From: Barnesiella sp.
GTDB lineage: Bacteria > Bacteroidota > Bacteroidia > Bacteroidales > Muribaculaceae
Direction: 5' to 3'
DNA: 64,000 nucleotides
Assembly (NCBI GenBank): GCA_014801075.1
Contig: JAAVEW010000020.1
Location: 94,037-158,036, forward strand
The notes below the pieces were generated by a model. That model was not told the DNA's origin and made no database searches. It saw nothing but the letters and a program-made list of their open reading frames with translations. Below are positions 5,090 through 63,191 of the stretch, piece after piece (the stretch's first letter is position 1; the number at the start of each line of letters is the position of its first letter). Position numbers and translations under genes: made by a program.

Positions 5090-6553
5090 ATGAATATTTC
5101 AGTATATGTATTTAAGAAGGTCGGGAGGGAAACGGGAGCTAAAGTGGAATCCTTCCCGACCGCTCTTGACAAGGGGACGCAGAAGGTTGTCGGCGATATC
5201 AGAATCGAGGGCGAGAGGAACGCCGCCCTCGTGGTGAGGCGCAATGGCAATCTGATGTATTATATCTATGCAGTCAATGTTGACGATGATATATTCGGGT
5301 TTATATTTATAGTGAATAATGCCTATCTTGCGCATGTGGATTCGTTGAGTCGCTTCTGCAGCGATATGATAGGCACGATAGCCGCCCGACACTTGCTTCT
5401 GAAATGGTCGTCGGCGGGTCAGCTGTGCTTTACCGACTCTCGATTCGTGAAGTGTAGCGACGAGGCGAGTCAGGTGTTGATGCGTCTTGAAGAGATACGC
5501 AACGTGTCGGTGTTCAACAAGGCAATCGCGCTCCCTCTGCTCGACTATGGTGCTGAGACCAAGCACGTTGTTATGAATTGTTGGAATTCACAAGAGCTGC
5601 CTGCCATACCGCAGAGCCACCGTCAGGTGGAGGTTGTGGAGATGCGGCTGCCGAAAGTCGATTTCCACGTGGCGGACGTGATACACTCGCTGCACGATAC
5701 CAACCTCTCGTGGGAAAAACAGTATGATGAACTGACGGAGAAATATACCAGACTCAGTAATCAGAAGAAGAGGATGAAATGGGTGATAATCCTCGGTTTG
5801 TGCATGGTGGCCGGCGGTGTGGTGCTGTTTGCCGTGAACAAGAATCTGAAACGTACGCAGTCAAATCTGAGCGAAGCACATACAGCTATCGACAGCCTGT
5901 CGGTGGAGAAAGCTGTTTTAATCTCCGACGTGGATAAACTGTATAATGTCTCCGAAATATACAGTAATGAAATAAAGTCATTGAAATCGGACTATATTAC
6001 GGCCATTGACAGGATATCATATCTGGAGTCAAAAATGCCGGTTGAGGTGACTTCAATGAGGTTGATTTATATTTGTGACGGTTATTCTTATTCCGGAGGG
6101 ACGCCGGTCAAGGATCAGGTAAGCGCCATCAGTTTTGATGTCAAATACAAGGTCAGCCGATTCAAGGGAGTCGATATTTCGAAATACCCTTCGGTGGAAC
6201 TCTACCGTCCGGCCCGGTATGACCTTAAGGAGCAGGAAGCAAATGCCAATCTTATTGAAGAAGAGCAGCCGGAAATACAGGCAGAAGCTGAGTCTGCAGA
6301 TTGCTCTCGACCTAAACAATTGTATCTTGCTTTGAGATGTTATTACAAACCGTATTCTTCAGGTTCATTGGATTATGTTCTGAAAGGGGTATACGGTTTT
6401 ACACTTAATATCTCTTCCAGCAGTAGCGGGTCTGTCAGTACGCCGTCGTTCAGCATGGGCTTCACTAAATTCCCCGCAGGGGCTTATCGCATAGAACTAT
6501 GGGATACGTGGGAGAACAAGTGTATGTATTATACTGTTTTCACTATAAGTTAA
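5090..6553 (+). CDS. Second GTPase-associated membrane protein (N-domain, coiled coil, TM, C-domain)
   Basis: Start taken at MNISVYVF (5090). TM WVIILGLCMVAGGVVLFAV is flanked by coiled coils; same layout as 3316-5076. Confidence 0.65.
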   Translation: MNISVYVFKKVGRETGAKVESFPTALDKGTQKVVGDIRIEGERNAALVVRRNGNLMYYIYAVNVDDDIFGFIFIVNNAYLAHVDSLSRFCSDMIGTIAARHLLLKWSSAGQLCFTDSRFVKCSDEASQVLMRLEEIRNVSVFNKAIALPLLDYGAETKHVVMNCWNSQELPAIPQSHRQVEVVEMRLPKVDFHVADVIHSLHDTNLSWEKQYDELTEKYTRLSNQKKRMKWVIILGLCMVAGGVVLFAVNKNLKRTQSNLSEAHTAIDSLSVEKAVLISDVDKLYNVSEIYSNEIKSLKSDYITAIDRISYLESKMPVEVTSMRLIYICDGYSYSGGTPVKDQVSAISFDVKYKVSRFKGVDISKYPSVELYRPARYDLKEQEANANLIEEEQPEIQAEAESADCSRPKQLYLALRCYYKPYSSGSLDYVLKGVYGFTLNISSSSSGSVSTPSFSMGFTKFPAGAYRIELWDTWENKCMYYTVFTIS

Positions 6554-39100: not shown

Positions 39101-39371
39101 TTTGGCACTGTTAGTATATTGTCGTATATTTGCAGTGCTACAAATCACGATAGTAAGTCTATCCCGCCGGGCTCGGTTAATGCTCGACATGTTCCTCGGG
39201 CTTTTTTTATGCCCTTACTTAACGAAGTTTGCTTCGTTAAGTTTACATACCCAGCCTTACGGCTGCCATTCCGATAATCTTGCACTCGGCAACGGGATTG
39301 CATCGTGATTTGTAGCAACGGAATCGGCAGCCGTTTTTTTGTCTGCCTGCTACAAATCACGATGCAATATG
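39101..39371 (+). ncRNA. c4/CI-like antisense-switch leader, copy 1
   Basis: Promoter 39101-39132. A1 (39136-39151) and A2 (39348-39367) are both complementary to A' (39298-39317). Closing stem ACGGCTGCC/GGCAGCCGT followed by a T-run. ATG at 39369. Confidence 0.65.
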
Positions 39372-39644
39372 CAAACAACAGCTCTTACCGCGCCGGCTAC
39401 ACTGGCGCAAGTTCCAAACCTCCGCGCTATGGCTATGCGTGCCATCAGCGCCGCCTTCTCGTCGAAGGCTTTCATTATCGTCGCCGGCTTAGTGGCCGCG
39501 ATGATGTATTTCCACTTCATTACCATAGTCGACACCATCGCGATGCAGCGTGCCCTCGCCACTGACTGTCTCTGCGCTGCGCCCTGGGCCCTCGCCCGGC
39601 TTATACGCTCAATCAGGAAAGGAGGTAGCTATGCACGGATTTAA
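39369..39644 (+). CDS. Small hydrophobic protein, first gene under leader copy 1
   Basis: MQTTALTAP...; TM-like stretch FIIVAGLVAAMMYFHFI. Confidence 0.6.
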   Translation: MQTTALTAPATLAQVPNLRAMAMRAISAAFSSKAFIIVAGLVAAMMYFHFITIVDTIAMQRALATDCLCAAPWALARLIRSIRKGGSYARI

Positions 39645-42550: not shown

Positions 42551-43576
42551 ATGCCTAAATATTACAATCTCTTTCTCAAAGGCACTGTCGGCTATTGGAA
42601 CTTCAATGCCGACATGGTCTCTGTTGTTCTTGACAAGCACAAGAACTCCAGGGTAGATGTCCTGATTGACTCACTCGGTGGCGATACAGCTACCGCTCTA
42701 TCTATCTCCTCTCTCTTCCGTTTGCATGGCGATGTTCACTGCCACTATGTAGGTATGAACGCGTCGGCTGCTACAATCGCTTCAATGGGAGCTAAGCATA
42801 TCTCCATTGATGCCGATGCCCTTTTCCTCGTTCACAAATGTATGGCGCCCGTATTTGAATGGGACTACATGAACGCTGATGAACTCGACGCTCATATCGA
42901 GGAACTGAAAAAAACGAAGAAAGATAATGAGACCATAGACGGTTGTATTGCCGGAATGTATGCAAAGCGATGCAAGAAGACCAAGGAGGAACTCCTCGAT
43001 CTGATGAAAGAAGGTGCATGGCTTACAGCCGGGCAAGCCCTCGAATGGGGCTTCGTCGATGAAATCACCAACGAAGCCGAGGACCCCGCTCCTGTGCTCA
43101 CTGACTCCGTTGCTTCTGTTATTGCAGATGCAGGCATCCCGATGCCACCGATTGACGTTAAAAAGGGCTCTTTTTTAGAACGCCTGTTCAAGGCGTTTTC
43201 GCCAAGTTTCCAATCCGCAGACGAGGCTAAAAAGCCAGAAGCTGCAAAATCAACTGTTCAAATGCCGAAAAAATTCACAGCTGTTGGTGCCCTTCTGGGT
43301 ACTGCCGTCTCGGTCTCCGATGGTAAGCTCACTATTACCGAACAGCAGGCCGACACTCTGGAGGCCGCTGTCGCAGCTCATGACACCACCGTCAATGACC
43401 TCAATTCTAAAATCGCAGAGAAGGACAGTAAAATTGCCGAACTCAATGCTAAAATCGCTGACCTCGTCAAAGAGCCTGCCGACGACACCAAAACCATAAA
43501 TCAGACTCCCGGTGAGGTGACGCAGGACTCTATCGACATCGATAAGATGTGCGATGCCATTCTCTCCAACTTCTAA
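42551..43576 (+). CDS. ClpP-like head maturation protease / scaffold
   Basis: IDSLGGD, NASAATIA, FLVHKC, AWLTAGQALEWGFVDEI; coiled-coil C-terminus; start set at MPKYY. Confidence 0.88.
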   Translation: MPKYYNLFLKGTVGYWNFNADMVSVVLDKHKNSRVDVLIDSLGGDTATALSISSLFRLHGDVHCHYVGMNASAATIASMGAKHISIDADALFLVHKCMAPVFEWDYMNADELDAHIEELKKTKKDNETIDGCIAGMYAKRCKKTKEELLDLMKEGAWLTAGQALEWGFVDEITNEAEDPAPVLTDSVASVIADAGIPMPPIDVKKGSFLERLFKAFSPSFQSADEAKKPEAAKSTVQMPKKFTAVGALLGTAVSVSDGKLTITEQQADTLEAAVAAHDTTVNDLNSKIAEKDSKIAELNAKIADLVKEPADDTKTINQTPGEVTQDSIDIDKMCDAILSNF

Positions 43577-47326: not shown

Positions 47327-47959
47327 ATGCCGAAACTCCTCTCTCCCCTTGAAGCATGTAAGGTTGACCTCTTTGCATCGGAGGCCGAACTGCACGAGAA
47401 ATATCCTGTCGCTCTCGCTGAGCGCGTCATGCGTATTCGTGAGATGTACAATTATTGGCTCGCCAATCCATCCATGAAGGACCGTCAGTTGCGTGATGCC
47501 ATAATGTCTCGTTATGGCGTATCGCAGTCAACGGCCTACTCCGACATTAGCGTAATTCATCAGCTCGTGCCTCTGCTCTCTCAGAAATCTCGTGATTTCC
47601 ACAGAGCCAGAGCCAATGAGATGCTCTTGGAAACATACGCAATGGCTAAGGCCCGGAAGGACACTAAGTCGATGGAACGCGCGGCGGCCTCTTATGCCAA
47701 ATACAACCGTGTCGATCTGGAGGACGAGATGACAATGCCATACGACGAAATAGTAATTCAGCCGTTCTGTGCTACTCTTGATGTCCGTGTGCTTGGCCTC
47801 GAACCTATCCCCGACGCATACAACTATATCGCTCAACTTACTAAAGAGTTGTCGCGCGATTTCCGTGACATCGAGGACGTGGAGTTTGAAGATGCTGACC
47901 TTGAAGAACAACTACTTTTTGCACCTCTCTCCGATGGAAATGATAAATCCGAAAGCTAA
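47327..47959 (+). CDS. Hypothetical protein, candidate small terminase
   Basis: HTH-like RYGVSQSTAYSDI; overlaps the terminase start. Confidence 0.55.
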   Translation: MPKLLSPLEACKVDLFASEAELHEKYPVALAERVMRIREMYNYWLANPSMKDRQLRDAIMSRYGVSQSTAYSDISVIHQLVPLLSQKSRDFHRARANEMLLETYAMAKARKDTKSMERAAASYAKYNRVDLEDEMTMPYDEIVIQPFCATLDVRVLGLEPIPDAYNYIAQLTKELSRDFRDIEDVEFEDADLEEQLLFAPLSDGNDKSES

Positions 47960-49580
47960 GCCTACATACTTCAACCGCCCGCAGCTCACGGCACAGCTCA
48001 TCGGTGCCCGTACTACCGTAATTGTGGCCGGGCGCCGTACCGGAAAAACCGATTCTATTGCCGCTCCCTACGTGCTGAAAATGATGCAGCGCATGCCCGG
48101 CTCAACAGGCGGAATCGTTGTGCCCACGTTCAAACATGGCCTCACCAATACGCTTCCGGGACTCTTTGCTGCTTGGGAGCGCTGGGGGTTTAAACGAGGC
48201 GTCCATTACGTCGTTGGTCGCCGTCCCCCTAAATCGTTCGCCAAACCTATAACTGAGCCTCATGACTGGGAGCAGGTTATATCTTTCTATAACGGGTCGG
48301 TTGCAATCCTCCTTTCTCAGGACCGCACCGGCGCCGCCAACTCTCTCACGCTCTCATGGCTGCTCATCGACGAGGCTAAATTTATTGACCCCGTGCGTCT
48401 GCATGAGGAAACTTTCCCCGCCAATGGTGGAATCAAGACCCATTTCTCACGCCATTCATTCAATCATGCAGTCCTCATTCTTTCAGATATGCCGCAGAGT
48501 AAAAAGGGCTCATGGTTTCTCGAATACGAGAAAAAGATGAACCCCGAGATTATCCGTGCTATCGAGGCAGGCGTGTACGAAGTATGGAGACAGAAACAGA
48601 AAATCGTTGAACTGAGAAAGAAAGGTGTCGAGCCTCCATCTTATCTCCGCGGTTATCTGCGGCGCCTCGATGCTAACATCAATAAGTTGCGCTCTATCGC
48701 TACTTATTATCGTGAATACTCTTCAGTTGAGAACGTCGAGCTGCTTGGCGAACAGTACCTGCGAGATATGAAACGTGACCTGACGCCGCTTACCTTTCAA
48801 ACATCGATTATGTGTCAGAAAATCGGTATTGCCCGCGATGGTTTCTACTCCTCTATGAAGGAAGGGCATAAATATAATGCCAGTGATTTTGAATATCTTG
48901 ACAATCTCGGTTATGACTTTGTTCCCGAGGCAATGGATTGCCGGGCTGACCGCGACCTCGATCGCTTCCGGCCTATTTGCATAGGTATGGACTACAATGC
49001 TAATATCAACTGGATTGTAGCCGGACAGCCCGATGAATCAATCGGCCGATTAAACATCCTCAAATCCTTCTATGTCAAGTATGAGAGAAAACTCCCTGCC
49101 CTTATAGCCGATTTCTGCCAATATTATGCCCATCATAGGTGTAAGACGGTGGTGTTCTATTATGACACCACGGCTCTCGGCTCTAACTACGCCGTCAACA
49201 ATGTCGACTTCCGATATACCATCATCGAAGAGTTTAAGCGGCACGGTTGGTATGTCGTGGCAATCCCTTTGGGCAATCCGATGCATCATGAGGAAAAATA
49301 TCACCTAATCAATCATGGATTTGCCGGCAGAAACCGCCTTACTCCATATTTTAATCGACAGAATAACGATGACCTTATCCTCGCTATTCAGTCGGCCGGT
49401 GTGACTCGCGGTCGTAAAGGTTTTCACAAGGATAAATCCGGAGAAAAACTTGCCGAGACCGAGGACGATCGCCTTGAACTGCGTACCGATGGCACAGATG
49501 CCTTCGACACGCTGTATATCGGTTGTGAGAAATTCCCGCATTTTGGCGGTTCGTTCGTCGATGTGTCCGGTCTCATGTAG
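47934..49580 (+). CDS. Terminase large subunit
   Basis: Walker A VAGRRTGKT, Walker B LLIDEAK, nuclease IGMDYN and TDGTDAFD. Start at 47934 or 47940. Confidence 0.88.
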   Translation: MEMINPKAKPTYFNRPQLTAQLIGARTTVIVAGRRTGKTDSIAAPYVLKMMQRMPGSTGGIVVPTFKHGLTNTLPGLFAAWERWGFKRGVHYVVGRRPPKSFAKPITEPHDWEQVISFYNGSVAILLSQDRTGAANSLTLSWLLIDEAKFIDPVRLHEETFPANGGIKTHFSRHSFNHAVLILSDMPQSKKGSWFLEYEKKMNPEIIRAIEAGVYEVWRQKQKIVELRKKGVEPPSYLRGYLRRLDANINKLRSIATYYREYSSVENVELLGEQYLRDMKRDLTPLTFQTSIMCQKIGIARDGFYSSMKEGHKYNASDFEYLDNLGYDFVPEAMDCRADRDLDRFRPICIGMDYNANINWIVAGQPDESIGRLNILKSFYVKYERKLPALIADFCQYYAHHRCKTVVFYYDTTALGSNYAVNNVDFRYTIIEEFKRHGWYVVAIPLGNPMHHEEKYHLINHGFAGRNRLTPYFNRQNNDDLILAIQSAGVTRGRKGFHKDKSGEKLAETEDDRLELRTDGTDAFDTLYIGCEKFPHFGGSFVDVSGLM

Positions 49581-49873: not shown

Positions 49874-50080
49874 ATGAAAAAATTTGAAATACGCCTTGCA
49901 GAACAGCATCGACGCAATGCTCTGCATTTGAAAAATCTTACCGCATTCATTGAGAACCCCGAGCGCTTCAATAAACTCGCTCCTGAGGACCAACAGTTAA
50001 TTCAGACCCAACAGGCTCTTATGGCACGCCTTGATGATGTTCTGGAGCAACGTTTACGCAGACTTAATATTCCCGTATAA
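49874..50080 (+). CDS. Small helical phage protein (crAss001_48-like pattern)
   Basis: L.NL.AFI...F..L...Q.L...Q...M....VL..RL pattern. Confidence 0.55.
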   Translation: MKKFEIRLAEQHRRNALHLKNLTAFIENPERFNKLAPEDQQLIQTQQALMARLDDVLEQRLRRLNIPV

Positions 50081-50670
50081 TGCAGACACTCAAAACAGGC
50101 AGTCGCGGACAGGATGTCCGCACTCTCCAGTCAGCCCTCTCTTTACATGTCGATGGCATTTTCGGGCCTTTAACCGAGGAGGCGGTCAAATACTTCCAGG
50201 CTGAAAAGTCTCTGACCGTTGATGGCATCGTGGGTCCTAAGACATGGGCCGCTCTTGGTGTCAAGTCTCCGGGTCGCAACATATCAAAAATCATTCTTCA
50301 CTGTACCGCCACTCCCGAAGGGCGCGACTTCACAGTGGCCCGAATTAAGGAATGGCATCTGGCTCGAGGTTTCTCGGACATAGGCTATCATTATGTTATA
50401 TATCGTGATGGCTCTGTAAACGTCGGCCGTCCCGAAGCCGTGGCCGGAGCTCATTGCACCGGGCAAAATTCTTGCTCAATAGGTATTGCCTACGTAGGAG
50501 GTTGCGCAGCTGATGGTAAAACACCTAAAGATACGCGTACTTCCGAGCAAAAGTCAGCACTGCATAAGCTCGTCGCCGAGCTGCAGAAAAAATACCCCGG
50601 CGCCTCAATTCACTGTCACTACGAATTTGCCAATAAAGCTTGCCCCTCTTTCAAACTATGCGATTTTTAA
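50080..50670 (+). CDS. Endolysin: peptidoglycan-binding domain + N-acetylmuramoyl-L-alanine amidase (T7-lysozyme type)
   Basis: VDGIFGPLT/VDGIVGPKTW; IILHCTAT; DIGYHYVI; HYEFANKACPSF. Confidence 0.92.
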   Translation: MQTLKTGSRGQDVRTLQSALSLHVDGIFGPLTEEAVKYFQAEKSLTVDGIVGPKTWAALGVKSPGRNISKIILHCTATPEGRDFTVARIKEWHLARGFSDIGYHYVIYRDGSVNVGRPEAVAGAHCTGQNSCSIGIAYVGGCAADGKTPKDTRTSEQKSALHKLVAELQKKYPGASIHCHYEFANKACPSFKLCDF

Positions 50671-51459: not shown

Positions 51460-51975
51460 ATGAAAAAAATATTACTTCTATTCACAATCATCATGTCGGC
51501 GTTTGGCTCACATGCTCAAAACTGCCTTTCCTCTGAAAATGTATCACTGGAAGGCAATCGAATTGTCTTACACGGTATAGTAAAGGTCGATTCCGCCTCG
51601 ATTTCAAATATTCATGACGGAATCGTTAAATGGATTTCATTAAATTACAATAACCCTCAGTCAGTTATAAAATCTGACTTACCGTCAATGGTAGTCATGG
51701 AAGGATTTATCCCTACCACGGGTTTTGAACATATCGCACGTGTCGTTTTTGAGATAAAAGAGAATAGATATCGCTGGTCTATTGATAATATTCTTTTTTA
51801 TAGCGAAACACTTGCAAGGTATGGAGGTCAATTAAAAACAGAGGTTGAAACCCAGCCATGGTATATAAATGCAGAAGGTATGGATAGAATTAACGAAATT
51901 ATTAAGAGATATTCATCGGCACCTTGCTCTATGATTGAGGGTATAAATCAACAGATATTAGATTCGGACTGGTAG
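51460..51975 (+). CDS. Moron secreted protein (DUF4468-like)
   Basis: Signal peptide; WISLNYNNPQSVIKSD and FEIKENRYR; AT-rich; promoter TTTG (51411)-N19-TATCTTTG (51434). Confidence 0.65.
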   Translation: MKKILLLFTIIMSAFGSHAQNCLSSENVSLEGNRIVLHGIVKVDSASISNIHDGIVKWISLNYNNPQSVIKSDLPSMVVMEGFIPTTGFEHIARVVFEIKENRYRWSIDNILFYSETLARYGGQLKTEVETQPWYINAEGMDRINEIIKRYSSAPCSMIEGINQQILDSDW

Positions 51976-51990
51976 AAAATAACCTCAAAG

Positions 51991-52238
51991 TTTGGCCATG
52001 TACTCTTTTTGTAGTATATTTGCAGTGCCAACTAAAACGAGACGCAAGTCTACCGATGAGCCACGGTTAACGGCTCGAACATCCTTCGGGCATTTTTTAT
52101 GCCCTTACATAAACGGCTACGGCTGTCATATCCTTACAATTTTTGCTCTTCGGAGACAAGTCTTGTTTTAGTTTGGCGACGGGATATGGCAGCCGTTTTT
52201 TTCTCTGCCTGTAATGCCAAACTAAAACAAGCACTATG
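51991..52238 (+). ncRNA. c4/CI-like antisense-switch leader, copy 2
   Basis: Promoter 51991-52022; A1 52027-52043, A' 52160-52177, A2 52216-52231; stem 52119-52133/52182-52196 plus T-run; ATG at 52236. Confidence 0.65.
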
Positions 52239-52625
52239 AACGAATTTGAAAAACGAATGAATGCGCTTTGCCGCCAGTACAGAGCCGAGCGCGCCCAAAT
52301 CACCAAGGACACATACCGCCACATCGGACACATCAACAACGCCATCTCGCAGTCCGAGTACCCGGAAGTCCGTGAAGCTCTACGCGCTGAGAAAGAACGC
52401 CTCTACGAGGCAATGCGCACCTCACACAAGTACAACCGCGTCTGCTACCGTCAGCAGCTCGAAATGCTTGAGGAGGAGTACCTGCTCTATCGCGAAAACA
52501 ATCCCTCCGGCCGTCAGCTGCGCCGCATGATGGCGCTCCTGTGCGATTCTGCCGAGACCAAAGGCGAGAAAACGCTGAAAATAGCTTTCGGTGACAACCG
52601 GCACGCAGAGATATCCTTCAGCTGA
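52236..52625 (+). CDS. Helical hypothetical protein under leader copy 2
   Basis: 129 aa; host-like high-GC codon use. Confidence 0.7.
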   Translation: MNEFEKRMNALCRQYRAERAQITKDTYRHIGHINNAISQSEYPEVREALRAEKERLYEAMRTSHKYNRVCYRQQLEMLEEEYLLYRENNPSGRQLRRMMALLCDSAETKGEKTLKIAFGDNRHAEISFS

Positions 52626-52690
52626 GAAATAATTTTGAGCCATTAACCAACTTCAGGAAACAGGGTGCGTCGCGAGGACTCGCCCTGTTT

Positions 52691-52725
52691 GTCTTTTTCT
52701 ATCGCCTTTATATCTGATACTTTTG
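52691..52725 (+). promoter_or_regulatory. Putative phage late promoter 3
   Basis: GTCTTT-N21-TACTTTTG, just after the hairpin at 52658-52690. Confidence 0.6.
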
Positions 52726-54024: not shown

Positions 54025-54070
54025 TTAATTTTCTCTCCTACGTTTGTCAATTGTTAAACTCTCTCTCCAA

Positions 54071-55459
54071 ATGCCAAAGAAAAAAACAGCTCCGTATTTC
54101 TATTCTCCCTCAAACGCCCTCGATATATTGTCCATTCATGATGTACCAATGTCAAATGTCAGGGCGGCTATTGTCACGAAAACTGAATCCGTCTTTCGTG
54201 AGACTAATACCATATCATGCCTTAAAACGCCCAAAGGCGATATCGCGTATGTTCCGTGGGGCGCCGATGACGAGTTGCCATATAAGCTGATAAATCTTAT
54301 TGAGGAAGACGAAACCCTCTCGACTTGTCAGATATTCAACGCGGAAGTTTGCTATGGAAGCGGCCTTAAGTATTGTACTGAGGGCGCGTCTCTCGTAGTG
54401 AAAAATGAAGTCGACGATTTCCTCATGGACAATCCGATGCCCGACTACTTCCTCGGCGTTTGCCAGGATTTGAAATACTTTAATTTTTCTATCTCGGTAA
54501 TAATCCTCAATGAGGATGGTGATAAAATTGTTGAACTACACCGTAAACCTGCATGTTATTGCCGTTTCTGTCCGGCAGACAAGAAAACAGGCAAGATTAC
54601 CAAGGTCATTTTTGCCCCTTTCCGTTCCCTTACCGCTAATGACTCTGTAGAGGTTATTGACTTGCTTGACCCTCGTTCTCCATGGAAAGACCTTCAGCAG
54701 CGCATGGGCCTGCGTGCCTCCAAAGCTAATCCCGATAAGGGCAATATACCCAAAGTTCGTAAGTTCGCAATATTATCGCGATTCCCGGGCGTCGATTCAA
54801 TGTATTATCCTATTCCTCATTATGCAGCGCTCTTCAAAGGCCACTGGTATAACATAAAGCGGCTTATCGGCGAAGCGAAGATGTCAAAATTGAAGAATGC
54901 TGCTCCCATAAAATATGTCATAGAGGTCTCCCCGCGATACTGGGATAACCTTTTCGCCAGTCGGCATACTGTCTCGCAGGAGGAACGGCAGAAACTGATT
55001 AATGAGAAAAAACAGGAAATGCTGCAGTTCCTTACCAGCGTTGAAAATACCGGTTCGGTCTTGTTCACCCCTAAAAGTATATCACTCGATGGAAAAGGAG
55101 AATCTCCCGACATTACAGTCACATCCATCGATAGCAAGACCAAAGAGGGAGGTGACTGGGAGAGCGATATTGCGGAAGCTGTGAACATGGTATGCTTTAC
55201 AATGCGTGTTCATTCCAACCTCGTTGGCTCGGTGCCCGGAAAAGCTCAGACGAACAACTCCGGCTCAGATAAACGCGAACTGTACACAATCGCCCAGGCT
55301 TTGCAGAAGCCCTATCACGATATACTCTTTCTCGTACATCAAATCATAATCAAGTTCAATAAATGGAATGGCGTACATGTCGATTGTCCTTTCATTCAGC
55401 TGACAACTCTTGACGAACATTCCGATGCAAAAGAAGTATCAACAGAAAATAAAAATTAA
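54071..55459 (+). CDS. Putative portal protein
   Basis: About 460 aa; YVPWGADDELP...YYPIPHY...NNSGSDKRE pattern recalled from Bacteroidales prophage portals; start set at MPKKK. Confidence 0.7.
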   Translation: MPKKKTAPYFYSPSNALDILSIHDVPMSNVRAAIVTKTESVFRETNTISCLKTPKGDIAYVPWGADDELPYKLINLIEEDETLSTCQIFNAEVCYGSGLKYCTEGASLVVKNEVDDFLMDNPMPDYFLGVCQDLKYFNFSISVIILNEDGDKIVELHRKPACYCRFCPADKKTGKITKVIFAPFRSLTANDSVEVIDLLDPRSPWKDLQQRMGLRASKANPDKGNIPKVRKFAILSRFPGVDSMYYPIPHYAALFKGHWYNIKRLIGEAKMSKLKNAAPIKYVIEVSPRYWDNLFASRHTVSQEERQKLINEKKQEMLQFLTSVENTGSVLFTPKSISLDGKGESPDITVTSIDSKTKEGGDWESDIAEAVNMVCFTMRVHSNLVGSVPGKAQTNNSGSDKRELYTIAQALQKPYHDILFLVHQIIIKFNKWNGVHVDCPFIQLTTLDEHSDAKEVSTENKN

Positions 55460-62944: not shown

Positions 62945-63191
62945 TTTGTTTTCGTATTATTTTTTTGTATATTTGCAATGCCAACGTAACATGAGCGTTT
63001 GTCGTTCCCGTAGAGCCACGGTCATCGGCTCGAACATTCTTCGGGCATTTTTTATGCCCTTACAGTCATTTACGGCTGCTGTCCTCTCACAACTTTTGCT
63101 CTTCGGAGACGAAGCTCGTGTTACGTTTGGCGACGGAGGATGGCAGCCGTCTTTTACTACTGCCTGTAACGCCAAATGTAACACAAAAATG
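62945..63191 (+). ncRNA. c4/CI-like antisense-switch leader, copy 3
   Basis: Promoter 62945-62975; A1 62980-62996, A' 63114-63131, A2 63171-63184; stem 63072-63086/63136-63150; ATG at 63189. Confidence 0.65.

What the first reader, a model, noticed from the sequence alone, without database searches (positions are those of the whole stretch)
51991..52238. Antisense-switch module copy 2, inserted between the lysis cassette/moron and the portal operon
Seen: A' GTCTTGTTTTAGTTTGGC (52160-52177) pairs perfectly over 16 bp with A2 GCCAAACTAAAACAAG (52216-52231, 4 nt before the ATG), and imperfectly with A1 GCCAACTAAAACGAGAC (52027-52043). The closing stem ACGGCTGTCATATCC/GGATATGGCAGCCGT has one G-U pair and is followed by T7; a CTC-TTCG-GAG tetraloop hairpin lies in the loop. 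It controls a single 129-aa gene with its own terminator. Inference: A'-A2 pairing would occlude the translation initiation region, and A'-A1 pairing is the alternative state.
Basis: partly seen in the sequence, partly recalled or inferred. Interest (0 to 1): 0.65.

Follow-up and report, generated by a model that had tools for sequence, protein, structure and literature searches.

The report
Address-coded phage leader RNA switch
This stretch is a promoter plus a roughly 210-base folded RNA leader, found three times in this gut-bacterial prophage and in dozens of related phages, in which one variable "address" segment can pair either with the RNA's 5' end or with the start-codon region of the next gene, so it most likely switches that gene on or off; no such RNA family is described.

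Summary
At 51991-52238 there is a Bacteroidetes-type promoter and a structured leader. A' (52160-52177) is a perfect 16-bp complement of A2 (52216-52231, 4 nt before the ATG) and an imperfect complement of A1 (52027-52043).

This is copy 2 of three paralogous modules in the window. I collected 35 distinct instances plus 11 hold-out ones from Bacteroidales phages and prophages. The boxes differ between instances but stay complementary. 16 of 18 A':A2 pairs and 16 of 17 A1:A' pairs change on both sides. G.U pairs show the pairing is in RNA.

In folding models, A1:A' excludes the terminator stem in the short transcript. Blocking A1 or A' restores that stem. In the full leader, A1:A' and A':A2 are about equally likely.

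Boxes are orthogonal between modules of one genome and are the most variable part of the RNA. RNA-seq contigs of a positional homologue in B. xylanisolvens begin at the module promoter and run through into the downstream genes.

Best reading: a bistable leader gating termination and translation, possibly set in trans by a cognate short RNA as in P4 CI or P1 c4. The trigger and the function of the 129-aa protein are unknown. There is no Rfam match.

The parts
51991..52022 (+). Promoter: -33 TTTG (51991-51994), a 20-nt spacer, then -7 TATATTTG (52015-52022). The predicted start is about 52026-52028, at the first bases of A1.
   Evidence: Sequence. The same arrangement precedes all instances. In the B. 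xylanisolvens positional homologue, RNA contigs begin 10-16 nt inside the predicted start and there is no coverage upstream.
52027..52043 (+). A1 box at the 5' end of the RNA. It is a degraded copy of A2, lacking one A, and pairs with A'.
   Evidence: A1:A' is 94.3% paired, 16 of 17 pairs change on both sides, and 0 of 500 shuffles reach the observed score.
52040..52051 (+). P1a hairpin (AGAC-GCAA-GTCT). Its 5' arm overlaps the distal end of A1.
   Evidence: A 4-6 bp hairpin of variable sequence sits at this place in 35 of 35 instances.
52053..52061 (+). 5' strand of LR2 (CCGATGAGC). It pairs with 52145-52153 and overlaps the 5' arm of P2.
   Evidence: 87% paired, 4 of 9 pairs change on both sides. 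Non-consensus 'loop' letters are matched upstream.
52058..52076 (+). P2 hairpin (GAGCC / GGCTC) with the conserved loop ACGGTTAAC. It competes with LR2 and with T1.
   Evidence: 97% paired. Loop entropy is 0.72 bits.
52073..52100 (+). T1: hairpin GCTCGAA-CATCC-TTCGGGC followed by ATTTTTTAT, an early terminator-like site. P3 (GGGCAT-TTTTT-ATGCCC, 52088-52104) is the alternative use of GGGC.
   Evidence: Terminator scan. Hairpin plus a run of 6-7 U in 35 of 35 instances. 92.7% paired. P(T1) rises from 0.46 to 0.93 when the 5' region is blocked.
52119..52133 (+). T5' arm of the main conditional terminator stem.
   Evidence: 94.6% paired, 7 of 15 pairs change on both sides.
52145..52153 (+). 3' strand of LR2 (GCTCTTCGG).
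52160..52177 (+). A' box, the 'address'. It is complementary to both A1 and A2 and lies in the loop of the T stem.
   Evidence: There are 30 distinct 10-mers among 35 instances.
52182..52202 (+). T3' arm (52182-52196) and the run of seven T (52196-52202).
52205..52209 (+). CTGCC. It pairs with GGCAG of T3' (52188-52192) and caps the A':A2 hairpin, with the U run in its loop.
   Evidence: GACAG/CTGTC occurs 15 times, GGCAG/CTGCC 14 times, GGCAG/CTGTC 3 times, and there is no A-C combination. This may reflect a single evolutionary event.
52216..52231 (+). A2 box, covering positions -20 to -5 relative to the ATG.
   Evidence: The helix ends within about 5 nt of the ATG, up to 5 nt before it or up to 3 nt into it, in all 35 instances. 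A':A2 is 91.2% paired, 16 of 18 pairs change on both sides, and 0 of 500 shuffles reach the observed score.
52236..52625 (+). Controlled gene: a conserved 129-aa protein of unknown function (two long helices, a third helix and a beta-hairpin).
   Evidence: 114 homologue clusters, all hypothetical. AlphaFold2 pLDDT 94. No significant fold match. No Pfam or PHROG hit.
52658..52700 (+). Terminator-like hairpin (52658-52671 / 52677-52690) followed by GTCTTTTTCT. It ends the one-gene unit.
   Evidence: inverted repeat I5. Sequence.
39101..39371 (+). Paralogous module copy 1, with a different address (CTACAAATCACGATGC).
62945..63191 (+). Paralogous module copy 3, about 79% identical to copy 2 outside the boxes. 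Its address is GCCAAA(C/T)GTAACAC.

Best explanation
The stretch encodes a host-type promoter and a cis-regulatory leader RNA of about 210 nt that can fold in mutually exclusive ways.

State ON: the 5'-terminal box A1 pairs with A', extended by helix LR2. This closes a domain of about 150 nt, locks the T5' arm inside it so the T5':T3' terminator stem cannot form, and leaves A2 and the start codon open.

State OFF comes in two forms.
- If A1 is unavailable while the leader is being made, the early T1 hairpin and/or the T stem form, each followed by a U run, and transcription stops. The product is a short RNA that displays A' in a loop.
- In read-through transcripts, A' instead pairs with A2 and buries the translation start region.

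The input that decides is most likely a short, terminated transcript of the same module. Its A' would pair in trans with A1 of nascent cognate leaders and with A2 of cognate leaders. That is a self-specific feedback or immunity loop of the P4 CI / P1 c4 type. Each module would carry its own 'address' so that the three modules of one phage, and those of related phages, do not cross-talk.

Shown: the pairings are conserved and exclusive, the energetics are balanced, and a homologous module is transcribed with read-through. Inferred: termination control, translation control, and above all the trans-acting trigger. My confidence is about 0.8 for the cis three-box switch itself and about 0.35 for the trans trigger. 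The figure given is for the whole statement.
For: 1. There are three paralogous modules in the window. I collected 35 distinct instances plus 11 hold-out ones in Bacteroidales phages and prophages from mouse and human gut.
2. Covariation is strong. A':A2 scores 0.747 against 0.168 for shuffles. A1:A' scores 0.847 against 0.187. Both give 0 of 500 shuffles, and slid controls are only 33-46% paired. In the T stem, 7 of 15 pairs change on both sides. LR2 and T1 are also supported.
3. G.U pairs, for example A' G with A2 U in 8 sequences, show that the pairing is in the + strand RNA and not in DNA.
4. A2 abuts the ATG in all 35 instances; the helix ends within about 5 nt of it.
5. Folding of the short isoform gives P(A1:A') about 1 and P(T) about 0 in 34 of 35 instances. 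Blocking A1 or A' gives P(T) about 1 in 33-34 of 35. In the full leader P(A1:A') is 0.45 against 0.53 for P(A':A2).
6. Cognate duplexes average about -25 kcal/mol against about -11 for non-cognate ones. The boxes are orthogonal in all 7 genomes that carry several modules.
7. The boxes have the highest entropy in the RNA, 1.47 bits, although they are triply constrained.
8. In 7 runs from 4 studies, RNA-seq contigs of B. xylanisolvens start at the module promoter of the positional homologue. They continue about 1 kb through both terminator-like sites.
Against: - No short terminated RNA has been seen. I had only assembled RNA contigs, which cannot show coverage steps.
- The homologue reads through both terminator-like sites in lysogen cultures.
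- The exclusivity of A1:A' and the T stem rests on a pseudoknot-free energy model. The two helices share no nucleotides and could coexist as a pseudoknot.
- The U run after T is weak in some instances, with 4 U in the 8 nt after the stem.
- Orthogonal, fast-changing boxes are also compatible with purely cis function plus drift or box conversion.
- No extra target of A' exists in the window, and the rest of the genome could not be searched.
- The RNA contigs begin 10-16 nt inside A1. That could mean 5' processing rather than library loss.
Confidence: 0.5

Rival explanations
1. Purely cis kinetic switch of the hok-mRNA type. Each transcript first folds into one state because of the order of synthesis: A1:A', helped or delayed by the P1a hairpin. 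It then relaxes to the other state, A':A2. The result is a short translation window or a delayed one. No trans RNA is involved, and the boxes differ only through drift with compensation.
For: - The three-box logic matches hok tac / ucb / SD, including a 5' metastable hairpin next to the 5' box (PMC9841398). P1a is present in 35 of 35 instances.
- The energies of the two states are balanced.
- A1 is systematically weakened relative to A2. It is bulged in 17 of 35 instances, often with G.U in the others. That would favour displacement by A2.
- No other target of A' lies in the window.
Against: - No fold-back partner for A1 lies downstream. The best sites are no better than for shuffled A1.
- This reading does not explain the strongly covarying T stem and the U runs.
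- It does not explain why the triply constrained boxes are the most variable part of the RNA, or why they are distinct in every genome with several modules.
Confidence: 0.25
2. A platform for a protein or RNA-polymerase factor. The conserved scaffold (P2 loop ACGGTTAAC, the invariant GGGCATTTTTTATGCCC) binds a phage or host factor that sets termination at T1 and T for all modules at once, as put RNA, N/nut or RAT-type antiterminators do. The boxes would merely close the fold.
For: - The scaffold sequence is far more conserved than its structure requires. P3 entropy is 0.08 bits and the P2 loop 0.72 bits.
- There are several copies per phage at operon boundaries.
- P2 and T1 are balanced in the nascent RNA, 0.38 against 0.46.
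Against: - No candidate factor was identified.
- This reading does not explain why A2 always abuts the ATG or why addresses diversify.
- There is no match to any Rfam family.
Confidence: 0.12
3. A pseudoknotted, stable small RNA is the main product. A1:A' and the T stem form together, and the RNA acts on targets elsewhere. The pairing of A2 with A' would be secondary.
For: - A1:A' and the T stem share no nucleotides and both covary.
- A promoter directly followed by a terminator-like stem is typical of a small-RNA gene.
Against: - A2 complementarity is conserved, perfect or near perfect, and always sits at the ATG.
- The homologue's transcript continues into the genes.
- Only 4 nt link A' to T3', so two helices of 15-17 bp are hard to fit together. 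This is my own geometric reasoning and is not computed.
Confidence: 0.05
4. DNA-level element: A1, A' and A2 are recombination or inversion sites, or targets of a mobile element.
For: Direct repeats (A1, A2) and an inverted repeat (A') flank short segments.
Against: - Strand-specific G.U pairs would be mismatches in DNA.
- All other helices behave as RNA helices.
- The element is transcribed.
- The 38-bp spacer is too short for known invertases. This is from my own knowledge.
- No inverted variants appear among 46 instances.
Confidence: 0.02

Closest known systems
Satellite phage P4 immunity (CI RNA with seqB, targets seqA and seqC) and the P1/P7 c4 antisense RNA (a'b' against a1b1 / a2b2 in the immI operon)
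   Same: - One transcript carries target, antisense box and target in that order.
- The downstream target overlaps the translation start of the next gene.
- Pairing leads to premature termination or translational block.
- Specificity is sequence-coded and differs between related phages (heteroimmunity).
- The element is carried by a temperate phage.

Sources: PMC4825925 for P4; PMC8198154 citing Citron and Schuster 1990 for c4; the box order in P1 is from my own knowledge.
   Different: - There is no sequence or structure homology, and no hit to any Rfam model.
- Here the short RNA would be made by an intrinsic terminator rather than by RNase P processing.
- The antisense box sits inside the terminator loop.
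- The 5' target pairs in cis as an apparent antiterminator.
- There are three orthogonal copies per phage in front of unrelated small genes.
- The host phylum is Bacteroidota.
- Trans action is not shown here.
hok mRNA folding switch of plasmid R1 (tac / ucb / mok SD, with a metastable 5' hairpin)
   Same: - A 5'-end box and the translation start region compete for one middle box.
- A small hairpin next to the 5' box can delay the switch.
- Coupled covariation of three boxes is the evidence for the switch (PMC9841398).
   Different: - There is no 3' fold-back (fbi) partner.
- No antisense Sok-like gene is evident.
- The controlled products are not small hydrophobic toxins. The one behind copy 2 is a soluble helical protein of 129 aa.
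- Terminator stems are part of the switch.
IsrK of the Salmonella Gifsy-1 prophage (dual small RNA and messenger RNA)
   Same: A prophage promoter gives a short terminated RNA and a read-through isoform that is translationally inactive by itself. The short form acts in trans on the long one (PMC4825925).
   Different: - IsrK activates translation.
- It is a single locus with no variable-address family.
- The short isoform is not yet demonstrated here.
Antisense-RNA-driven transcription attenuation of plasmids pT181 / pIP501 (my own knowledge)
   Same: Pairing of an RNA with the 5' part of a nascent leader prevents a pre-emptor helix, so that a terminator forms.
   Different: There the regulator is a countertranscript from the opposite strand. 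Here the antisense box is encoded in the same strand and the same leader.

Membership tests
Rfam C4 antisense RNA family (P1 c4 / P4 CI) | Match to the family covariance model | tested here: not met
   No Rfam family reached the gathering threshold in the whole window. At E up to 10 on 51950-52300, only chance microRNA/snoRNA-type hits appeared.
Rfam C4 antisense RNA family (P1 c4 / P4 CI) | An antisense box flanked in the same transcript by two complementary targets, the downstream one at a translation start | tested here: met
   The order is A1, A', A2. A2 ends within about 5 nt of the ATG (up to 5 nt before it or up to 3 nt into it) in all 35 instances.
Rfam C4 antisense RNA family (P1 c4 / P4 CI) | The mature RNA is released by RNase P processing and acts in trans | not testable with these tools
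   Only assembled RNA contigs were available.
hok/sok-type type I toxin-antitoxin mRNA | Three-box competition: 5' box against the start region for one middle box | tested here: met
hok/sok-type type I toxin-antitoxin mRNA | A 3' fold-back element pairing with the 5' box | tested here: not met
   The best downstream site for A1 is -15 to -16 kcal/mol. That is within the range for shuffled A1 in all three copies.
hok/sok-type type I toxin-antitoxin mRNA | Small hydrophobic toxin as the product | tested here: not met
   The copy 2 product is 129 aa and modelled as soluble helices plus a beta-hairpin. The first gene behind copy 1 does have a hydrophobic segment.
Intrinsic-terminator attenuator | G+C-rich stem followed by a U run | tested here: met
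   T1: 6-8 bp plus 6-7 U in 35 of 35 instances. T: 15 bp plus 4-8 U.
Intrinsic-terminator attenuator | Terminator stem mutually exclusive with an alternative pairing | tested here: inconclusive
   They are exclusive in the nested energy model: P(T) is 0 by default and 1 when A1 or A' is blocked. A1:A' and T share no nucleotides, so the exclusivity is topological and not proven. T1 and P2 do share nucleotides.
IsrK-like dual-function RNA | Read-through isoform carrying the downstream genes | tested here: met
   Shown in the B. xylanisolvens positional homologue only.
IsrK-like dual-function RNA | A stable short terminated isoform | not testable with these tools
   Contig depth is flat, and no raw reads were on hand.
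Metabolite riboswitch | Match to a known aptamer class | tested here: not met

The most novel reading that the evidence does not exclude
Gut Bacteroidales phages carry a natural kit of orthogonal, programmable riboregulators. Each module would make a short RNA whose roughly 10-nt address terminates and silences only leaders with the same address. This would give gene-by-gene self-repression in the lysogen and address-specific exclusion of related superinfecting phages. Addresses would diversify under an arms race. All this occurs in a phylum without Shine-Dalgarno-led initiation or Hfq.
Probability: 0.3. Interest if true: 0.85.

Novelty: new variant of a known kind. Interest (0 to 1): 0.7.

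Why it matters
RNA-based gene control in Bacteroidota and their phages is poorly known, and no leader of this kind is in Rfam or in the papers I could search.

The family offers several things:
- a clear, testable case of a multi-state RNA in which both outputs, termination and translation, hang on one variable segment;
- a possible RNA-coded immunity or specificity system outside the enterobacterial P1/P4 paradigm;
- ready-made orthogonal parts (at least 30 addresses on one scaffold) for engineering gene expression in gut Bacteroides.

It also marks a set of small conserved phage genes, including the 129-aa family, whose expression the phage evidently guards tightly.

Tried and rejected
- **Rfam:** at gathering and at E up to 10, nothing relevant.
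- **Phage record collection:** blastn found no match.
- **Controlled and neighbouring genes:** Pfam and PHROGs gave nothing informative, apart from phrog_4002 upstream.
- **129-aa protein fold:** Foldseek on a confident model found no hit below E 0.05 in PDB or BFVD.
- **RNA runs for the window itself:** none hold it. Four runs hold only conserved pieces from relatives, on multi-kb contigs, and say nothing about transcript ends.
- **Muribaculum locus L053:** it could not be sent to the run search.
- **hok-like 3' partner for A1:** none found.
- **DNA-level repeat or inversion reading:** rejected because of strand-specific G.U pairs and transcription.
- **P4 hairpin (ACGGC/GCTGT):** weak. It is 78.7% paired and no pair changes on both sides.
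- **Pattern searches:** GGGCNTTTTTTATGCCCTTAC and the second pattern pick up many unrelated terminators and soil contigs. Only nhmmer-confirmed hits were used.
- **Tools unavailable:** The genome search and the fetch from genomes were shut, so the rest of the genome was not searched for further A2-like targets.
- **Covariance model:** I did not build one. MAFFT misaligns the variable boxes, so the boxes were counted on an anchored, gapless segment alignment with artificial linkers (A3). Its register was set by one best diagonal per sequence, which leans slightly towards the structure.

Full report
**What is there**

Region 51991-52238 reads as follows:
- a Bacteroidetes-type promoter: TTTG at 51991-51994, 20 nt, then TATATTTG at 52015-52022;
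- a leader of about 210 nt;
- the ATG at 52236 of a 129-aa ORF.

- A' (52160-52177) and A2 (52216-52231) are a perfect 16-bp inverted repeat.
- A1 (52027-52043) pairs with A' with one bulge and one G.U.
- The stem 52119-52133 / 52182-52196 has 15 bp with one G.U.
- The run of seven T is 52196-52202 and includes the last stem base.

On its own, the 16-bp repeat is only mildly unusual for 64 kb.

**It is one member of a family**

Self-comparison finds three copies in the window: about 39101-39371, 51991-52238 and 62945-63191. Copy 3 is 79% identical to copy 2.

Pattern scans followed by an nhmmer profile gave 35 distinct full-length instances. They come from viral contigs and from genomes of Muribaculaceae, Sangeribacter, Prevotella and Bacteroides xylanisolvens XB1A.

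A later metagenome scan added 11 further distinct instances, some from human gut. I used these as a hold-out set.

No Rfam family matches. Phage records hold nothing similar. Full-text searches turned up no description.

**The boxes covary three ways, at the RNA level**

I made an anchored, gapless alignment of the three boxes (A3). It uses artificial linkers, and the register was set by one diagonal per sequence.

| Helix | Cells paired | Pairs changed on both sides | Covariation score (shuffled) | Shuffles reaching it | Slid controls paired |
|---|---|---|---|---|---|
| A':A2 | 91.2% | 16 of 18 | 0.747 (0.168) | 0 of 500 | 33-46% |
| A1:A' | 94.3% | 16 of 17 | 0.847 (0.187) | 0 of 500 | 34-46% |

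Many pairs are G.U. For example, A' G pairs with A2 U in 8 sequences. These would be mismatches in DNA or on the opposite strand, so the pairing is selected in the + strand RNA.

A2 ends within about 5 nt of the ATG in all 35 instances: up to 5 nt before it, or up to 3 nt into it.

A1 is a systematically weakened copy of A2. 17 of 35 lack the A opposite a T of A', and most of the others carry it, often with a C-to-T change that gives G.U.

On the full-length MAFFT alignment A2:
- The terminator-like stem T5':T3' is 94.6% paired, and 7 of 15 pairs change on both sides.
- The 'CTC-TTCG-GAG tetraloop hairpin' is better read as the 3' strand of a long-range helix, LR2 (52053-52061 with 52145-52153). 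This helix extends A1:A'. When its 'loop' letters depart from TTCG, the upstream strand follows: CA/TG, AT/AT, TT/AA, GG/TC, TA/TA. It is 87% paired and 4 of 9 pairs change on both sides.
- LR2 overlaps the small hairpin P2 (52058-52076).
- P2 in turn overlaps an early hairpin, T1 (52073-52091), which is followed by an invariant run of 6-7 U. T1 is a canonical terminator shape, present in 35 of 35 instances.
- A variable hairpin, P1a, overlaps the distal end of A1 in 35 of 35 instances.
- After the U run, CTGCC (52205-52209) pairs with GGCAG of T3'. The combinations are GACAG/CTGTC 15 times, GGCAG/CTGCC 14 times, G.U 3 times and A-C never. This may be a single evolutionary event. The small helix would cap the A':A2 hairpin.

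**Energetics** (ViennaRNA, no pseudoknots)

- For the RNA up to the U run, A1:A' has probability about 1 and the T stem about 0 in 34 of 35 instances.
- If A1 or A' is made unavailable, the T stem forms with probability about 1 in 33-34 of 35.
- For the leader up to the ATG, the two partners of A' are nearly balanced. Mean P(A1:A') is 0.45 against 0.53 for P(A':A2), and 16 against 18 instances favour each.
- In the nascent RNA, P2 (0.38) and T1 (0.46) are also balanced. T1 rises to 0.93 if the 5' region is masked.

In this model, A1:A' therefore acts as an antiterminator and as an anti-sequestor of the start region. A caveat applies. A1:A' and T share no bases, so their exclusivity is topological and depends on the model.

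**Addresses are specific and diversify**

- Cognate duplexes average -25.5 kcal/mol for A':A2 and -23.6 for A1:A'. Non-cognate duplexes average about -10.7.
- The cognate partner is the best of 35 in 29 cases for each helix.
- In every genome or contig with several modules, the boxes are orthogonal. This holds for the window (3 modules), Prevotella L026 (3 in tandem), L029, L030 and three further pairs.
- The hold-out set repeats this: -22.5 and -20.4 against -11.8 and -11.0.
- The variable part of the box has the highest column entropy in the RNA, 1.47 bits against 0.5-1.2 for unpaired linkers. This is despite having to change in three places at once. There are 30 distinct addresses among 35 instances.
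- The same gene family sits behind many different addresses, and the same address sits in front of different genes.

**Transcription**

No RNA run holds the window.

The B. xylanisolvens XB1A module (L007) is the positional homologue of copy 2. A phrog_4002 gene lies upstream, as in the window. A 452-aa phrog_22277 gene lies downstream.

In 7 RNA-seq runs from 4 studies:
- the assembled RNA contigs begin at L007 6011-6025, which is 10-16 nt inside the predicted start;
- an adapter is joined at about 6020-6023 in two runs;
- the four runs laid show nothing over the roughly 130 nt directly upstream;
- the contigs run about 1.04 kb through T1 and T into the small downstream ORFs and stop before the structural genes.

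So the promoter is active in lysogen cultures, and the leader is part of an mRNA. Contigs cannot show whether short terminated RNAs also exist.

**What it controls**

The 129-aa protein has 114 homologue clusters, all unnamed, mostly of exactly 129 aa. In related phages the gene keeps its place, with the leader and a different address in front of it. The order there is terminase, endolysin, a 166-aa gene, a variable 'moron' slot, then module plus 129-aa gene, then 364-aa, 77-aa and 452-aa genes. It is therefore not a recent insertion.

A confident model (pLDDT 94) shows two long helices, a third helix and a beta-hairpin. There is no significant structural neighbour. Its function is unknown.

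PHROGs confirm the terminase (47769-49580), the endolysin (50080-50670) and the head protease (42551-43576). They do not confirm that 54044-55459 is a portal.

**Mechanism**

I commit to a bistable leader.
- A1:A' plus LR2 gives read-through and an open start region.
- Loss of A1:A' gives termination at T1 or T, or A':A2 with the start region buried.

The most likely input is a cognate short transcript that pairs in trans with A1 and A2. This resembles P4 CI RNA with seqA and seqC (PMC4825925) and P1/P7 c4 (PMC8198154). That reading best explains the conditional terminators and the orthogonal, fast-changing addresses. It is also the least certain step.

The main rival is a purely cis, hok-like folding timer. 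It shares the logic of tac / ucb / SD plus a metastable hairpin (PMC9841398). However, no 3' fold-back partner exists here, and it leaves the terminators unexplained.

A factor binding the highly conserved scaffold is a further possibility. It is not exclusive of the others.

IsrK of Gifsy-1 shows that a short terminated isoform acting on its own read-through isoform is a real mechanism in prophages (PMC4825925).

**Relation to earlier notes of this scan**

Two earlier follow-ups on copies 1 and 3 reached the same general reading and the P4 comparison. I re-derived the covariation and specificity independently. New in this report:
- the LR2, P2/T1 and cap helices;
- the conditional-terminator and bistability calculations;
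- the hold-out test;
- the synteny;
- the RNA-seq evidence;
- the hok and IsrK comparisons.

Noticed in passing
window 52236-52625: The protein collection holds this gene's product as 122 aa, starting at Met8 (P0001, 95% coverage). Nearly all of the 114 homologue clusters are 129 aa and start at the ATG that A2 abuts. The upstream ATG is the likely true start.
   Followed up: partly
Its 452-aa counterpart in B. xylanisolvens hits phrog_22277, of unknown function. The portal assignment is unverified.
   Followed up: partly
L026 6537-7702 (Prevotella MAG contig CALUGU010000086.1): Three modules stand in tandem about 465 nt apart. Each sits in front of a paralogous small ORF that begins MQTKTIGRSAAPAADIK. 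The three addresses are fully different from one another. It looks like a natural array of orthogonal switches on near-identical genes.
   Followed up: partly
L007 4978-6035 (B. xylanisolvens XB1A, minus strand): In lysogen cultures the prophage expresses a unit of about 1.04 kb, made of the leader plus three or four small ORFs. In the four runs laid over that stretch, the adjacent structural genes show no RNA contigs. The module's genes are therefore transcribed during lysogeny.
   Followed up: partly
window 51460-51975 and L007 6119-6571: A secreted or lipoprotein-like gene of phrog_4002 sits just upstream of the module in both phages. In the Muribaculum-type phage (L053) the same slot holds a HicA/HicB-like pair on the opposite strand. 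This is a variable 'moron' slot directly before the leader.
   Followed up: no
L012 and L025: MAGs labelled Clostridium and Staphylococcus carry typical modules with Bacteroidetes-type promoters. These contigs are probably mis-binned Bacteroidales phage DNA.
   Followed up: no
window 52691, 42495, 63706: Each of the three module-led units ends just before one of the phage-specific 'GTCTTT-21 nt-TAnnTTTG' promoters noted by another first-stage finding. The modules sit at operon boundaries.
   Followed up: no
window 39369-39644: The first gene behind copy 1 (91 aa) has a hydrophobic, membrane-span-like segment (AFIIVAGLVAAMMYFHFITIV). The products behind copies 2 and 3 look soluble.
   Followed up: no
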